This document shows positions 4,854 through 59,231 of a stretch of 64,000 nucleotides of DNA, piece by piece. The stretch's first letter is position 1; every line of letters begins with the position of its first letter. This stretch comes from the human T2T-CHM13v2.0 reference genome, Homo sapiens: NCBI RefSeq assembly GCF_009914755.1, contig NC_060947.1; one strand, 5' to 3'. A program made the translations under genes and the position numbers. The notes under the pieces were generated by a model. The model was not told the DNA's origin, ran no database searches, and saw nothing but the letters and a program-made list of their open reading frames with translations.

Positions 4854-7813
<2,960 letters not shown>

Positions 7814-27088: not shown

Positions 27089-29764
27089 GAGAGAAAGAGA
27101 GACAGAAAGAAAATAAAACAGATGGGGCAAAATGCGAACAATTGGTGAATCCGGGTAAAGAGTATAGGAAAGATCCTTACACTATTCTTAGACTTTGAAA
27201 TTATCCCACCTTCTCAGCTTGTGCAACATTTGAGGAGCAAACCAAATGGAAGGTGCACAAATATTATCCTGGGTGGAGGGTGCAAGACAATTAGAAGACA
27301 AAAAGGGGCTCGGTCTCGAATAACCAAATTAATCCTGAGAATATATTGTTCACAAAATCAAAATGTTTCTAGTTTTTTCCATTAAATATCACAAGTACTT
27401 TAAGTGTACAAAACAAATGGATGGTGTTTTAGATGTGGAATAAATACTAAGACCAGGTAAGAAGCCACAGCCTAGCTTGGGTTTACTGGTCTCTGGAATG
27501 GGGTGGAGACTGGTTCCTATGCCAGGCTGTGGAGGCAGATCCCCTGTCCATAGAGAGGTCAGACCCTGAACGAGAAAGAAAAGAGAAAGTACCAGTGAGG
27601 CAGCAGGCAGGGGTATTCCTTCTCCTGAATAAAACGGAGTAAGGGCATAGGAGGCCACATAGCCCACTCACTTGGGCCAGCAGCATCAGGCTTTTGGAGC
27701 CACCTCATTAACACATCATTAAGAAGAGCAGTATATTCTACGTAAGTGAGTGTTTCCCGGAAAAATGGATTATTTCTGTCCCCTTCAAATTCATGAATGC
27801 TGCCCAGAAAGCCCCAGGTTTCCTGTAATATCTATTAAAAATTCCAGTTATTCCAGCAACAATGTCCAGTCACCACTATTTCCACTAAGAGAAATAAAAT
27901 AGTAACACTAAATTATACTGGTTCTTTCTTTGATGATGTACCCAGTGGAGAGAAGGTGTAATATTGGATTGAATCTGCAATCTCTCAGGATCATTACTAA
28001 AATACCTGATAGACTCTTAAAAAAATTGTAATATGTCTCTTTCTCTTAAAACTAAAATGCAAGAAAACCATTTCAATTATTAGAGTTTGGGGTTTTTTCC
28101 TTTTAAAAATATTAAAACTAAGAGAGTTTATTGTAATAGGGAATATGAGATGAGGTTGGCTTTGATTCTTGAACTGTTGTTTCTTTAGGGCCATAAAGCT
28201 ACTTTTATTTCAGAGTATCTTGTATTTCATAGGAAGGAAGGAAACTGATATTTCTTGGATGCCTACTATGTGCCAGGTATTGTGCCATTTCATTTAATCC
28301 AGGGTTCAGCTCATTCCAAACTTGGGGAAAAGAGAGAGAGAAAACACTAAAAGATTTTTATTAGAAAGGAATAATCTTGGTGCCATTTTTTTTCCTGTGA
28401 ATACAAATTCTGGACTTACATATTCAAATATGTTTTCATGCATCTTCCCAGGCATCTAAGTATTCATGCTGCCCTTGGTTGTTTTGGTCAATAAGAACTT
28501 CTTACTGCAGCTATTTCCGCTTTCTTTCATTTCATCATGGTTGCTTCTTTTTCCAGAATAGAATACTTATAATATTATATCAGTGAGGCTGATTGTGTCA
28601 TATTTTCTCCTTTTCATTTAAAGACAGAAGAAAAGCACTGAAGAAAATTTGGCAAAATTATTTGGGAAGAAAACACTTAAAATCTCCGTCTTCCAACAGC
28701 AATTATTTTCAGTTTTGTGTAGTGCCTTTCAGTCTTTGTTCCTTGTCATACATTTTCACATCATTGCAATAAAAGCATATGTGCAGTTGAGGGCCTTTTA
28801 CTTACCTTCTAAATATTTTATCATAAAGATATATATATTTTTCAATATTATAACTCTTAAAGGCTGATAGCATTCCATTAAGTGGGTATACCATAATTTC
28901 TTTGAGGGTAACCCTACTGTTGAGTAGCTAGACTGTTTCCTATTTTTCAACATTGGGCAAACTGTGTCAAAACTATTAGTCAAAACTATTCCTATTAGTA
29001 CTTTTATGTTTGACATTAGTACTTTTACAGCAGGTGACTCCTCTTGTCAAATTGCTCTTTAAAAGTACTGTATTCAAATGACATCTCACCAGCATTGAAT
29101 ATGTTCCAGAGCTGCCACAATCTCCTCAGCTCTCTTCTAGTACTTAATTATTTCAATCATATTACTCTTTGGTTCATTTGATAGATAAAACATGGTATCA
29201 GTTAGTAACCTATAATATCTCCTATTTGATTTTTATTTGCATAGCTTCAATTTCAGTCAAGGTTGAACATTTCATCTTATGTATATCTATTAAAGGAGTA
29301 AATTTTTGTGTGAATTTTCTCTTTTCCCCATTTACCTATTGATTGTTTTTATAACTGCTAAGTCCATTCCACATTTAAAAGTGCAGGCCCAACATCAATA
29401 CCAGTGTGTCTTTCTTTAAATATCTAGCCCCTACTTCTGTCTCTTTCGGGAGGCACATTGCTTCTTCCCATCTTTAGAACTACATTGAAAGCTGTAGGCT
29501 GAAAGAATAAATAAAAGTCTCCTTTTCTCTTCCAAGTTTTAAGCAAAGAACTCTAGTAGACCCTTCTACTGTGAAACACACTTCTGGCCAAACCACTGGA
29601 GGAATCACCCTGAGACCCAGAATAATGTCCCTATTAATAGCATCTTGGTATATCTTAGGTGAAAGGGGTCCCACATTCATAAAACCAACAAACAGTCCCA
29701 ATATATAAAATTAAAAGCTGAACTTAGCTCCCAGGTTTAAATTCACCTCCTCTTTCTTCCCTTC

Positions 29765-29850: not shown

Positions 29851-31289
29851 ACAGTCATACTTGCAATTTCTCTTTTAGGATATCCCTTATAATGAAAAAC
29901 AAAAGACTAAGGTATATTTTGGGGAAGTGAATGTGTTTCTGAAGAAATTCCTTCATTCCAAGACAGGATTCTGCTTTTTTCCCAGAACTTTGAGGAAGAG
30001 TCTGAAACTTAAGGCAAGAGTCTTTGTCACCATGATGCCATGCTCAGTTAGCAGGCTATCCATGTCTGCCCAATCAGATAGAAGCCAAACAGTGAGAACA
30101 CTGACCTCCCCAGAAAGGATGTGGAAGAGCATCCAAAGTGAGAGAACAGTATTGGAGACACATAGCAAAAGAATATTACATATAAATACCATCAATTGTA
30201 GCAATCCCTTACATATGGGAGGAGCCCTATCCTGAGGTTCTAATTTAAGAAGCCTGACTTACAGGCCCATTACATTGACCCAAACTATGGTTAGTAGAGT
30301 TAAAGTTGTTATAAAGCCCTATCTTTCAAGTCAATATACAACTGGAAGGTGAACTGTGAAGCCATCATGTGAGCCATCCTGAGAATTGTGTCCTATCTTG
30401 TGAGAAGAAATTCTAGATCTGTAGGGAGCTGGGGACTGGCCTGATGACAATTCAGTAAAGATTCTCACGTGAGGTCACAGGGGCCTCTAATTAAGAATGG
30501 ATTAGAGAACCAGAACCACGTAGAGTTGCTGAGATTTAAAATATTAGGAGGGACAGTCAAAGAAAGATACTGGTATTGATGTTGGGCCTGCACTTTTAAA
30601 GGCTGAATGGCTTTAGCAGTCATAAAATCAATAGTGACTGGTGATACGTTTACTTTTGCCTCATATCCCTTCAAAATCAGAACCTAATGAAGTTATAGAA
30701 TTAATATTCCCATCACTTTTCTTTGTAAGCAACATCACATTATTCAGACACATCACTTAGAAATTGTAATTCAATGAGTAAAGTTTCAGGAGTGAATTTG
30801 GTGTCAATTCACATCAACTTTCTACTGTGAGAACTTTCTATTTTACAGTCTCTCCCATCTGGAAAAACCTTCTTGTCTTTCTACCTCAGTGCTTCCCATT
30901 TTAAAATTAATCTTTTGCTCTCTGTCTGTACTTTGTAATTTCTCTTGTCCTATATTCTATTTACCATTTTAAAGCTGTGTGGTTTGATGGCGTCTATTTG
31001 AAAGGTGTTAAAAAAAGTTTTATGGCTAAAGCAGCACATTCTTCATAACAAAGCAACCCATGCTGGCTACCCAACAAATTGTAGAACATTCTCAGTGCTT
31101 TGTTCGGGACTCCTAGGAATGTGATCCTAAGGATTTGGCAGGGCCCTTACCCTAAGAGGAGACAGAGCCCTGAGAAAGAAGAGGCAAACAAAACTTCATG
31201 GGTATGGGATATGCACCTGTAGATGTATAAAGATGCTGCCGTTTATTCAGGAGGATTCCAAGGTACTAAATAGACGGGGTGCACTAGCA

Positions 31290-56711: not shown

Positions 56712-57146
56712 TGTAGTTTGAATTTCCCAAGAAGTAGACTCTGAGATAGCATTTAACTTGCAGGGTGTTTATTAGGAAGTGCCCTTGGGAGCAACCTATG
56801 TGAAGGGAGGAGAAGAAAAGGGAGTGGGCACAGAGAGAAACAGAGCTGCAGGACTGGCCCAGTAATAGACTGATCCTATATGGAGCAGTGTGGCTAGAAA
56901 TAGCCTTTCAGGGTTATCTTCCTTTGAAATGAGATGGCCAAGCCTTATACTCCCATGTAAATCCATCACTGGATGTGGTCTATCTTGAGAAAGAGGTAAC
57001 CTTGGTAATATGGCTCTCTGCAGCTGAGGGAGCCCCTGAAGGTGGTAACACTGAAGGCTGCCTGCCCTTAGCACTCCCAGCAGCTGGGACAATAAGTCAT
57101 TCAATAAAGGTGTATCTAGGTAGCACATCACAGTATTCCAACACAC
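56712..57146 (-). mobile_element. LTR16A-like ERVL LTR
   Basis: ttcccaagaagtagactctgagat...gtgtttattaggaagtgcccttggga, the reverse complement of the LTR16 3' terminus. Confidence 0.72.
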
Positions 57147-57199
57147 TTTCAGTTTAAGATTTTTTCTCTTTAGAAAATTTCATGTACTTGTATTTCTAT

Positions 57200-57490
57200 C
57201 TGGTATACTTTCCCTTGGCATTTGCATGGGTAACTCATCTTTATCCTTCAGAAATCAGCTAAAATATCAGCGCCATGGTGAGACCATCCTGATTTCTTTC
57301 TCTTTACTTCAAGATTTATGATCACATATCTGTTATTGTTTTGCTGGCTCCCTATGAAGCCGAGAGTTCCATAAAGGCAGGAAGCATATAAATCGATTCA
57401 TCTCTTTTACCACCACTTAGCCTGGGGCCCAGCCTGTGGGGAAGGATTAAAAATTCTTACTAAATTATCCAAAAATGAATAAATAACAGA
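57200..57490 (+). mobile_element. L2 3' end
   Basis: aactcatctttatccttcagaaatcagctaaaatatc...gagttccataaaggcagg...aatgaataaataa. Confidence 0.6.
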
Positions 57491-58347
57491 ATTAATGGAT
57501 AAGTTGAAATATAATAAACCTAGATTTGTTGGACAAAACTTCAGAGTACAGTAGTATCCCCTTATTTGTGGAGGATACGTTCCAAGACCCCCAGTGGATG
57601 CCCAAAACCAAGGACAGTACTGAACCTGATTGTCATCAATCAGAATACACTTCTGCTCATGTCTTCCACCCTCAAATATAATGCCGTTTTCATCTTAACT
57701 AAGCACTTATTACACACCACGGCCACAACTTTTGCACTTTAAAGTGCGACATCAAAATAATTTTTCTCTTTCTTCACAATTTTATGGATAGAAGTTTCAT
57801 TCTTACCATAGATCTCAGCAACTTCAGCATACAATTTGTTTTTCTTTTCATATTAAGTTAGGAACTTACACCTTTTCACTTAAAGGAAGCATTTTACAGC
57901 TTCTCTGTGACATATCTGAATTACCAGCATCATTACTCTTGCACTTTGGGGCCATTATTAAGTCAAATAAGGGTTACTTGAACACAAGCACTGTGATACT
58001 GAGACAGTCCATCTGATAACGGAGATGGCTTACTAAGAGACTGATGGGCAGAGAGTGAAGACAGTGTAGATGGGCTGGACAAAGGGAAGACTCATATCCA
58101 GGGCTGAATGGATATCAAGTTCAGTACTGTCCTTGGTTTTGGGCATCCACTGGGGGTCTTAGAATGTATCCTCCACAAATAAGGGGATACTACTGTACTC
58201 TGAAGTTTTGTCCAACAAATCTAGGTTTATTATATTTCAACTTATCCATTAATTCTGTTATTTATTCATTTTTGGATAATTTAGTAAGAATTTTTAATCC
58301 TTCCCCACAGGCTGGGCCCCAGGCTAAGTGGTAGTAAAAGAGATGAA
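57397..58347. repeat. Inverted repeat: arms 57397-57630 and 58114-58347 (234 bp), 483-bp spacer
   Basis: Manual alignment gives no indels and 4 mismatches, all transitions. Confidence 0.97.
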
Positions 58348-58504
58348 CAGTGTAAGATTTCATAACACTGCTCAGAATGGTGTGCAATTTGAAACTTATG
58401 AACTGGTTGTTTCTGGAATTTTCCATTTAATATCTTCAGACTGTGATTGACCTTGGGTAACTGAAACCACAGGGAATGAAACCGTGGATAAGAGGGGACT
58501 ACTG
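57549..58504. mobile_element. MER44-family (Tigger7-derived) DNA transposon, interrupted by a 234-bp insertion
   Basis: ta|cagtagtatccccttatttgtggaggatacgttccaagacccccagtggatgcc ... gaaaccgtggataagaggggactactg. Confidence 0.88.
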
Positions 58505-58645
58505 AATGGTAAATAGTCATAGACATTTAGGGAATGATTCACGGTGTATTGTATGCTGCAGTCTCCTTAAGCAAGGGGTTCAGGGAGTGGAAAACACAGT
58601 GAAAGAGTCAGAAGTCAGAGAATGTCAAACATGTATTTGAAAATA

Positions 58646-58984
58646 TGTCTTAGTGAGCTCAGGCTGTTGTAACAAAATTCCGTAGACTGGGTGACTTAAA
58701 TAATACAAACTTATTTTCTCACAGTTCTAGAAGCTGGAAATCTAAGATCGAAGTGCCAACATGATTGGGTTCTGGTAAAAGGTCCTTTTGTAGATGGCTG
58801 CCATCTTGCTGTATGCTTACATGGCAGAGAGAGAGAGAAAGAGAGAAAGCAAGCTCCCTGGTGTCCACCCTCACAACTTCATCAAAACCTAATTGCCTCT
58901 CAAAGGCCCCATCTCCTAATTTCATCGCACTAGAGGTTAAGGTTTTAACATGTGAATATGGGGGAGACTATTCAGTCTGTAGCA
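58646..58984 (-). mobile_element. MLT1A/MSTD-like solo LTR
   Basis: tgtcttagtgagctcaggctgttgtaacaaaattccgtagactggg ... ttcagtctgtagca. Confidence 0.85.
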
Positions 58985-59231
58985 AGATGCAACATATTTT
59001 GTATTGTTTGTTTAAAAGACTAAAATATATCAGCTTTATATTAACTTACATACTTTTGCATTGTTTGTCTAAAAGACTCAACATATTAATTCATTATCCT
59101 TTTTTAGAGTATATAGTTAGTTCTCAAGGAATAATGTCACTACATATTAAGTTTGAAATACTGAAGACATACTCCTTAGGACAACATGTGCTGTTGGTAA
59201 TTGAATATGAGCAACACGCCAACCTTTTAGC

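What the first reader, a model, noticed from the sequence alone, without database searches (positions are those of the whole stretch)
57397..58347. Near-perfect 234-bp inverted duplication inserted into an old MER44 element
Seen: 58114-58347 is the reverse complement of 57397-57630 with no indels and 4 transitions (98.3%). The arm is not a transposon TIR. It contains 152 bp of flanking host sequence (partly L2) plus the first 82 bp of MER44, and the copy sits mid-element (ctgaatggat|insert|cagtgtaagatttc) with no poly(A) or TSD. The arms are far more alike than the surrounding decayed repeats are to their consensus. Inference: a comparatively recent templated insertion from about 0.5 kb away (replication template switch or end-joining), or homogenisation by gene conversion. 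The arms could drive recurrent inversion of the 483-bp spacer, form a hairpin or cruciform, or make a long non-Alu dsRNA if transcribed.
Basis: partly seen in the sequence, partly recalled or inferred. Interest (0 to 1): 0.8.

Follow-up and report, generated by a model that had tools for sequence, protein, structure and literature searches.

The report
Young inverted duplication inside old transposon
A 234-base piece of human X-chromosome DNA was copied backwards into an ancient dead transposon half a kilobase away, leaving a real but apparently functionless near-perfect inverted repeat of a kind already known as a copying-error scar.

Summary
Bases 58114-58347 are the reverse complement of 57397-57630: 234 nt, no indel, 4 transitions, 483-nt spacer.

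- The outer 152 nt of the arm occur only twice in the whole assembly, once in each arm.
- The inner 82 nt are the terminus of a dispersed, decayed transposon family, 80-88% alike.
- Seven paralogous copies run collinearly through the left arm's inner edge.
- In 27 of 28 copies with matches on both sides, the right arm is missing; the window has 227-253 extra nt, most often 229.

So the left arm is the source, the right arm is a later insertion, and the spacer keeps its ancestral orientation. There is no target-site duplication, no poly(A) and no microhomology at either junction.

My best reading is a DNA-level fold-back or template-switch copy, made at a replication fork or during break repair. 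It has the 3-2-1-4 pattern of short-range template switching but is longer than catalogued hominid events. Its divergence (1.7%, CI 0.5-4.4%) suggests ape or catarrhine age, but orthologues could not be examined. No RNA family or functional element matches. It is a real, tidy example of a known mutation class. Interest is low to moderate.

The parts
57397..57548 (+). Outer 152 nt of the left (source) arm: single-copy host flank, ending in the TA next to the transposon end
   Evidence: A whole-genome search with 57250-57548 finds only itself and 58196-58347 (2 candidates, 2 scored). TA at 57547-57548 is seen.
57549..57630 (+). Inner 82 nt of the left arm: native terminus (CAGTAG...) of the old Tigger-type element
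   Evidence: The 38 scored matches elsewhere in the genome cover arm positions about 140/162 to 222/234 at 80-88% identity, out of 872 first-look candidates. Seven copies continue collinearly into the spacer.
57631..58113 (-). 483-nt spacer: internal part of the same element, in ancestral orientation. It carries a decayed reading frame on the minus strand.
   Evidence: It is collinear with paralogous copies. Translating 57955-57632 on the minus strand gives 108 codons with 11 stops, with no Pfam match.
58114..58347 (-). Right arm: the inserted inverted copy of 57397-57630
   Evidence: It is 230/234 identical to the reverse complement of the left arm. It is absent from 27 of 28 paralogous copies with matches on both sides. 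All 3 polarisable differences are derived here.
58348..58505 (-). Remainder of the interrupted element, up to its other terminus (...CTACTG)
   Evidence: Family copies align from 58347/58357 to 58503-58507.
57549..58505 (-). The whole old transposon copy: 957 nt now, 723 nt without the insert
Evidence: The MER44-Tigger7 relation itself is stated in passages of PMC5753468.

Best explanation
Long after a Tigger-type (MER44-like) transposon copy had died and decayed, one DNA-level copying error duplicated 234 bp in inverted orientation. The copied piece was the transposon's left terminus (82 bp) plus the adjoining 152 bp of unique host DNA. The copy landed 483 bp downstream, inside the same element.

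The most likely mechanism is fold-back or template-switch synthesis. A growing 3' end at 58113 left its template, either at a stalled fork or on a resected break end. It then copied the same-sense strand backwards from 57630 to 57397 and returned to its own template at 58348. In the four-point notation this is a 3-2-1-4 event (1-4-3-2 if read on the other strand).

The product is a 951-bp structure with 234-bp stems. It has no detectable function and is a neutral mutational scar. Going by arm divergence it is probably of ape to catarrhine age.

Shown: the arms, the direction (left is the source, right is the insert), the exact junctions, the absence of transposition or retroposition hallmarks, and the ancestral orientation of the spacer. 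Inferred: the polymerase-switch mechanism, the date and the lack of function.
For: - Arms and differences.
- The full arm has only two copies in the 3.1-Gb assembly, and its outer 152 nt only two.
- The source context is native: 7 paralogous copies cross 57630/57631 in one alignment.
- The insert is absent from paralogues: the window has 227-253 extra nt relative to 27 of 28 copies, with a mode of 229 in 13 of them, which equals 234 inserted and 5 fewer.
- All 3 polarisable differences are derived in the right arm: family states at 57579 are A13/G4/T1 with the left arm keeping the CpG, at 57583 C16/T2, and at 57626 C9/T5/A3/G1.
- The arms are 98.3% alike, against 69-88% between this element and 37 other loci.
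- In 117 kb around those 37 other copies, no inverted pair of 50 nt or more exceeds 88.5%.
- Passages of PMC7954356 say that patterns 3-2-1-4 and 1-4-3-2 are the commonest short-range template-switch outcomes in great apes and create single inverted repeats. They also say that point 2 preceding point 1 allows intra- or inter-strand switching.
- No Rfam family matches 56800-59000 at E<=1. The hub's annotation lists no gene or functional element in the window.
Against: - Both junctions have 0 nt of microhomology. Priming after a switch is normally thought to use a few paired bases, so blunt junctions fit ligation of a ready-made fragment at least as well.
- At 234 nt the copied tract is nearly twice the longest event (128 nt; median 12) in the 1503 gold-standard hominid events of PMC7954356. 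That screen discarded donors masked as repeats, so its upper limit is partly methodological.
- The date rests on 4 differences only, and the rates I used are assumed: 0.4-1.0e-9 per site per year gives point estimates of 8.6-21.6 My and extremes of 2.3-56 My.
- No orthologue, second haplotype or read-level data could be examined.
Confidence: 0.6

Rival explanations
1. End-joining capture. A double-strand break at 58113|58348 was sealed by non-homologous end joining around a free 234-nt fragment, double- or single-stranded. The fragment would be a displaced nascent strand or a piece cut from the sister chromatid, originating 0.5 kb away and ligated in inverted orientation.
For: Both junctions are blunt, with 0 nt of microhomology and no target duplication. 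The site has about 5 nt fewer than the family mode (229 rather than 234 extra nt in 13 of 28 copies), as small end-processing losses would give. Three of the four differences are C>T at CC on one strand of the copy. That would fit a single-stranded intermediate.
Against: The best alignment puts the 5-nt shortfall 3 nt to the right of the junction, not at it. Other copies also carry indels there (L004, L023 and L031), so it may be unrelated. A free fragment has no reason to come from only 483 nt away unless replication or repair was already under way there, which blurs the difference from the template-switch model. Sequence alone cannot separate the two.
Confidence: 0.2
2. The duplication is ancient (tens of millions of years, pre-catarrhine), and the arms have been kept 98% alike by repeated gene conversion between them.
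For: Two of the four differences lie within 15 nt of an arm end (positions 15 and 230 of 234). Edge-poor conversion tracts would give this, but the chance probability is 0.08. Passages of PMC8755829 put the minimal homology for eukaryotic homologous recombination at 50-250 bp, so 234-bp arms are just long enough.
Against: There is no decayed extension of homology beyond either arm end: 5 of 15 matches on each side, and both neighbours are native transposon sequence. The whole original insert would therefore have had to be homogenised to its very ends. All 4 differences are G/C in the source and A/T in the copy. That is the ordinary mutational direction and the opposite of what GC-biased conversion fixes. 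Arms this short are at the lower limit for efficient conversion.
Confidence: 0.08
3. Assembly artefact: a fold-back chimera in the reads was built into the consensus.
For: Nothing positive. Only one assembly could be examined here.
Against: An artefactual fold-back would be an identical copy and would usually truncate or scramble the neighbourhood. Here the arms differ at 4 sites, all transitions and one at a CpG, and the interrupted element resumes cleanly after the insert.
Confidence: 0.02
4. A mobile-element product: the arms are the long terminal inverted repeats of a 951-bp element, or the right arm is a retroposed 'retro-DNA' copy made by L1 machinery.
For: The arm contains a genuine transposon terminus. 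Retroposed fragments of Tigger7 are reported in primates (passages of PMC11195612).
Against: The outer 152 nt of the 'TIR' occur nowhere else in the genome. No other copy of the family carries the structure. There is no TA or other duplication at 58113|58348. There is also no poly(A), no TSD of 8 nt or more and no TT/AAAA-type site, the features that define retro-DNAs in PMC11195612.
Confidence: 0.01
5. A functional long-hairpin RNA locus (a source of small RNAs or an editing substrate), with arms kept paired by selection.
For: The strand folds into a 234-bp stem: DNA parameters give -316 kcal/mol against -94 +/- 6.6 for 20 shuffles, z = -33.5. Template switching is proposed to create new hairpin RNA genes (titles and abstracts of PMC8794818 and PMC10710096 in the listing; the papers were not read).
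Against: No Rfam family matches at E<=1. No gene or functional element is annotated in the window (hub note). Any young inverted duplication folds this well, so the fold says nothing about function. The 4 differences are uncompensated.
Confidence: 0.03

Closest known systems
Short-range template-switch mutations (four-point model; Loytynoja & Goldman 2017; Walker et al. 2021, PMC7954356)
   Same: The inserted tract is the exact reverse complement of nearby sequence. One event explains everything. The switch-point order is 3-2-1-4 (or 1-4-3-2), the commonest pattern, and it creates a single inverted repeat. The donor lies within hundreds of nucleotides.
   Different: The tract is 234 nt, against a median of 12 and a maximum of 128 in the 1503 gold-standard hominid events. 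The donor is partly a masked repeat, so that screen would have discarded it. There is no pre-existing quasi-palindrome at the switch points.
FoSTeS/MMBIR and fold-back inverted duplications (title and abstract of PMC3907307 in the listing; the mechanism is from general knowledge)
   Same: Replicative or repair-linked copying produces an inverted duplicate separated from its source by a short single-copy spacer.
   Different: Those events span kilobases to megabases and typically show microhomology at the junctions. This one is 234 nt with 0 nt of microhomology at both junctions.
Genome-wide 'inverted duplicates' censused with Inverted Repeats Finder (Chen et al. 2017, PMC5398296)
   Same: Two reverse-complementary arms with a spacer of 1 kb or less. 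This one is intergenic and overlaps repeats, so it would count as a 'repetitive' inverted duplicate of their longest class.
   Different: The 80th percentile of human arm length there is 36 nt, so 234 nt at 98% identity lies far in the upper tail.
Large X-chromosome palindromes (Warburton 2004 as cited in PMC5398296; title and abstract of PMC8327919 in the listing)
   Same: Highly similar inverted arms on the human X, for which arm-to-arm gene conversion is the accepted homogeniser.
   Different: Those arms exceed 8 kb and carry testis-expressed genes. This one has 234-nt arms made of a dead transposon end and unique intergenic DNA, with no gene.
Retro-DNAs (Tang & Liang, PMC11195612)
   Same: A young extra copy of a fragment of an ancient DNA transposon, Tigger7 family included.
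   Different: Retro-DNAs have poly(A), TSDs of 8 nt or more and a TT/AAAA site, and they land far from the parent. None of these holds here.

Membership tests
Short-range template-switch mutation (four-point model) | The new tract is the reverse complement of a nearby tract on the same chromosome | tested here: met
   230/234 identity with no indel, donor 483 nt away
Short-range template-switch mutation (four-point model) | One pair of switches explains the change; the switch-point order is one of the described types | tested here: met
   Points 3=57397, 2=57630, 1=58113, 4=58348 give order 3-2-1-4. Passages of PMC7954356 name this a majority pattern.
Short-range template-switch mutation (four-point model) | The ancestral (outgroup) sequence lacks the tract | tested here: inconclusive
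As a substitute, 27 of 28 paralogous copies lack it. That shows an insertion into the element, not when it happened.
Short-range template-switch mutation (four-point model) | Tract length within the described range (median 12, maximum 128 nt) | tested here: not met
   234 nt against the figures
MMBIR/FoSTeS junction | Microhomology of a few bases at the breakpoints | tested here: not met
   0 nt at either junction when target, donor and product are compared
DNA transposon with long TIRs / MITE | The whole TIR recurs at many loci; a target-site duplication flanks the element | tested here: not met
   The outer 152 nt have only 2 genomic copies. No duplication at the outer ends: 5 of 15 matches.
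Retro-DNA / L1-mediated retrocopy | Poly(A) tail, TSD of 8 nt or more, TT/AAAA insertion site | tested here: not met
   The insert ends ...GAGATGAA|CAGTG and begins GGAT|ATCAAG. There is no A or T run and no repeat of the flank.
MER44 (non-autonomous Tigger7 derivative) | Match to the curated consensus; TA target duplication; Tigger-type termini | not testable with these tools
No repeat library was available. Consistent observations: a CAGTAG.../...CTACTG terminus pair, TA at 57547-57548 (the other side reads AA), at least 872 and 1681 first-look candidates genome-wide, and a decayed minus-strand frame with no Pfam hit.
Known structured RNA / miRNA family | Match to an Rfam covariance model | tested here: not met
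   0 matches at E<=1 over 56800-59000, both strands

The most novel reading that the evidence does not exclude
The insert may be the scar of a single-stranded intermediate that a cytosine deaminase hit before the event was sealed. The intermediate would be a displaced nascent strand of roughly Okazaki-fragment size, or a single-stranded template during fold-back synthesis.

The pattern behind this idea:
- All four differences are G/C in the source and A/T in the copy.
- All 3 polarisable ones are derived in the copy.
- The three non-CpG ones are C>T at 5'-CC on one strand (ACC, TCC, ACC). CC is the looser APOBEC3G motif reported for clustered hominid germline mutations (PMC4864454).

If those three arose with the event, only one later CpG transition separates the arms. 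The duplication would then be far younger than 1.7% implies, possibly human-lineage or still polymorphic. It would also be a germline example of rearrangement-linked deaminase clustering, and an unusually long blunt-ended template-switch or capture event that bridges 10-100-nt switches and kilobase fold-backs.
Probability: 0.1. Interest if true: 0.5.

Novelty: new member of a known kind. Interest (0 to 1): 0.25.

Why it matters
In itself it matters little. It lies in a gene-poor stretch of the X with no annotated gene or element, and nothing suggests a function.

It does have some value as a specimen. Paralogous transposon copies give an internal 'before' picture, so source, target, orientation and both junctions can be read to the base without an outgroup. 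The event is also about twice as long as the longest short-range template switch in the published great-ape catalogue, and both junctions are blunt. That makes it a useful test case for whether polymerase switching, end-joining capture or both operate at the 0.1-1-kb scale.

If it is polymorphic or lineage-specific, the 234-bp arms around a 483-bp spacer would also be a small natural substrate for spacer inversion and hairpin formation.

Tried and rejected
I did not ask again. I scanned the 37 loci already held instead (117 kb), which is a small and non-random sample.
- Pfam on the decayed minus-strand frame of the spacer, read through with X at 11 stops, gave nothing at E<=1. The Tigger/pogo assignment therefore has no protein-level support here.
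- Rfam gave nothing.
- I looked for microhomology or a pre-existing quasi-palindrome at the switch points. In register only 5 of 15 bases match on each side. By eye, a shifted 6-of-8 match is in the wrong register to prime the observed junction, so I rejected it.
- I tried to tie the 5-nt shortfall at the site to the event. It lies in a short tandem-like stretch where other copies also have indels, so it cannot be assigned.
- The supplements of PMC11195612, which list primate presence/absence DNA-transposon fragments and might include this one, could not be read.
- The other inverted pairs in the window are ordinary. 5268-5415 / 6082-6359 are two copies of a dispersed repeat. 48538/52200 is 73% alike. 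29342/30569 is 64 nt at 89% and was not followed up.

Full report
**1. The observation**

The sequence and the repeat finder show arms at 57397-57630 and 58114-58347, 234 nt each, with a 483-nt spacer. A base-by-base comparison finds 230 of 234 matches and no indel. There are four mismatches, all transitions:
- 57411/58333, C in the left arm and T in the right arm read in the same sense
- 57579/58165, G and A, at the arm's only CpG
- 57583/58161, C and T
- 57626/58118, C and T

Similarity ends abruptly. Of the next 15 bases, 5 match on the outer side and 5 on the inner side.

The longest exact inverted run is 167 nt. In 20 first-order Markov simulations of the window the longest was 14-18 nt. 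Among the 5 inverted pairs of at least 60 nt within 5 kb in the 64-kb window, this is the only one above 91%.

**2. What the arm is made of**

A search of the window's own 3.1-Gb assembly with the whole arm returned the two arms and 38 other scored matches, out of 872 first-look candidates. Those 38 cover only arm positions about 140/162 to 222/234, at 80-88% identity.

A search with 57250-57548 found exactly two places, itself and 58196-58347 (2 candidates, 2 scored). So the outer 152 nt are single-copy DNA that exists only in the two arms. The inner 82 nt are the end of an old dispersed repeat.

That end begins CAGTAG at 57549 and is preceded by TA. The other end of the element...CTACTG, is at 58505, where family matches stop at 58503-58507.

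I recall it the same way, as a non-autonomous Tigger7 derivative. Passages of PMC5753468 state that relation. No repeat library was available, so the name is not tested. The minus strand of the spacer carries a frame of 108 codons with 11 stops that gives no Pfam hit at E<=1. 'Partly L2' could not be tested either.

**3. Which arm is the copy**

I fetched 37 other loci holding family members and aligned them to 57300-58700.
- Seven of them (L004, L020, L021, L022, L023, L028, L038) cross the left arm's inner edge, 57630/57631, in a single alignment. The left arm's 82 nt are therefore in their native context.
- Twenty-eight of the 37 have matches on both sides of 58113|58348. In 27 of these the window carries 227-253 more bases than the locus between the matched ends, and the value is exactly 229 in 13 of them.
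- The exception, L015, shows only 78 extra nt, because it has about 156 extra bases of its own there.
- The nine loci without matches on both sides say nothing either way.
- A multiple alignment of 20 of these loci shows the element running straight through the site.

The right arm is therefore an insertion into a 723-nt element. The left arm is the source. The copy was made after the transposon had landed, because it includes the junction of host flank and transposon end. The spacer is in the ancestral orientation in this assembly.

**4. The junctions**

The product reads ...GAATGGAT|ATCAAG...GAGATGAA|CAGTGTAAG....

I compared the target, the reverse complement of the donor and the product. 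No base is shared at either junction, so microhomology is 0 nt. There is no duplication of the target, no A or T run and no filler.

The modal 229 rather than 234 means this copy has 5 nt fewer than most relatives near the site. The best alignment puts the gap 3 nt to the right of the junction, within a short tandem-like stretch where L004, L023 and L031 also have deletions. I cannot assign it to the event.

**5. Age**

This element is 69-88% identical to its relatives, and the arms are 98.3% identical to each other.

Four differences in 234 nt give 1.7% (Poisson 95% interval 0.47-4.4%). With assumed rates of 0.4-1.0e-9 per site per year, the point estimates are 8.6-21.6 million years and the extremes 2.3-56. 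These rates are my assumption and do not come from a tool.

Using recalled figures for X-chromosome divergence (human-chimpanzee near 1%, human-orangutan near 3%, human-macaque near 5%), the event would be of ape to catarrhine age.

In 117 kb around the 37 other family copies, no inverted pair of 50 nt or more exceeds 88.5% identity. So this is not something the family tends to do.

**6. Direction of the differences**

Eighteen family copies give the ancestral state at the three differences inside the transposon part:
- 57579: A13/G4/T1. The left arm keeps the CpG that most copies have lost.
- 57583: C16/T2.
- 57626: C9/T5/A3/G1. This position lies near a subfamily split, so it is less secure, but the most similar copy, L004, agrees with the left arm.

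All three are derived in the inserted copy. The fourth lies in unique DNA and cannot be polarised.

All four have G or C in the source and A or T in the copy. The three non-CpG ones are C>T at CC dinucleotides on one strand (ACC, TCC, ACC). With 20 such cytosines and 13 equivalent guanines among 90 G+C, the chance of three out of three is about 0.014. This is a post hoc test on three events.

Passages of PMC4864454 report strand-coordinated clusters at the APOBEC3G motifs CC and CCC in hominid germline evolution. None of my three sites is the stringent CCC motif. I treat this as an unexplained detail and as the basis of the 'novel case', not as evidence.

**7. Mechanism**

The copy is the same-sense strand read backwards. 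That is what results when a 3' end at 58113 folds back on its own strand, or crosses to the sister template, copies 57630 down to 57397 and then returns.

In the four-point notation of Walker et al. 2021 (PMC7954356; passages) this is order 3-2-1-4, or 1-4-3-2 if replication ran the other way. These are the two majority patterns that 'generate single inverted repeats', and point 2 before point 1 allows both intra- and inter-strand switching.

The same product would arise on a resected break end by snap-back synthesis followed by end joining (general knowledge, recalled).

Two things count against a simple polymerase switch:
- Both junctions are blunt.
- The tract is 234 nt, against a median of 12 and a maximum of 128 in their 1503 gold-standard events. 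That screen removed donors masked as repeats and searched only close to mutation clusters, so its maximum is not a biological limit.

Ligation of a ready-made 234-nt fragment into a break fits the blunt junctions equally well, and sequence alone cannot exclude it. I put 0.6 on fold-back or template-switch synthesis and 0.2 on capture by end joining.

**8. Rejected readings**

- Transposon TIR: the outer 152 nt occur nowhere else and there is no target duplication.
- Retro-DNA: the defining poly(A), TSD of 8 nt or more and TT/AAAA site (passages of PMC11195612) are all absent.
- Old duplication kept alike by conversion. This is possible, since homology of 50-250 bp is the stated minimum for recombination (passages of PMC8755829). 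Two of four differences lie within 15 nt of the arm ends, with chance probability 0.08. Against it, there is no decayed homology beyond the arms, and the differences run against GC-biased conversion.
- Artefact: the arms differ at four sites and the host element resumes cleanly.
- Functional hairpin: the strand folds at -316 kcal/mol against -94 +/- 6.6 for 20 shuffles, but any young inverted duplicate would. Rfam finds nothing, and nothing is annotated in the window (hub note).

**9. Comparison with what is known, and novelty**

Inverted duplicates are pervasive in the human genome. In the census of PMC5398296 (passages) the 80th percentile of arm length is 36 nt and 197 elements (0.003%) exceed 10 kb. 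A 234-nt, 98% pair is therefore in the upper tail but within a recognised category.

[quoted passage not shown] It fails the usual length range of the former and the microhomology of the latter. I file it as a new member of a known kind.

I did not search the literature for this locus itself, because coordinates are not searchable. I therefore make no claim that it is unpublished.

**10. What remains open**

- The date and the lineage
- Whether the 5-nt shortfall belongs to the event
- Whether the arm or the spacer orientation varies among people
- Whether the region is ever transcribed

All of these need primate orthologues, other human haplotypes, raw reads or RNA data, none of which these tools reach.

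Noticed in passing
57411/58333, 57579/58165, 57583/58161, 57626/58118: All four arm differences are G/C in the source arm and A/T in the copy. All 3 polarisable ones are derived in the copy. The three non-CpG ones are C>T at CC on one strand (post hoc chance about 0.014). This may mark a single-stranded, deaminated intermediate, or it may be chance.
   Followed up: partly
57625-57631: The arm's inner end (57630) lies about 5 nt from the point where family copies split into two kinds. One kind continues ...AACC|TGATTG... like this element; the other continues ...AACC|CTATATATA. That split is an old subfamily deletion junction. The closeness is probably coincidence.
   Followed up: partly
5268-5415 and 6082-6359: A second inverted pair (93 nt at 91% and 63 nt at 87%, with about 120 nt more in the right arm). 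Both arms belong to a dispersed repeat with many genomic copies at 84-90%. These are two inverted copies, or the ends of one old element. Ordinary.
   Followed up: partly
29342-29405 and 30569-30632: A 64-nt inverted pair, 89% complementary, 1163 nt apart. Not examined.
   Followed up: no
L015:1700-1923: One paralogous family copy has about 156 extra bases of its own close to the same position where the window's copy was interrupted. The extra bases were not examined.
   Followed up: no
57632-57955 (minus strand): A decayed reading frame starting MAPK..., with 11 stops in 108 codons and no Pfam match. It is presumably the remnant of the transposase N-terminus of the parent element (recalled, not shown).
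   Followed up: partly
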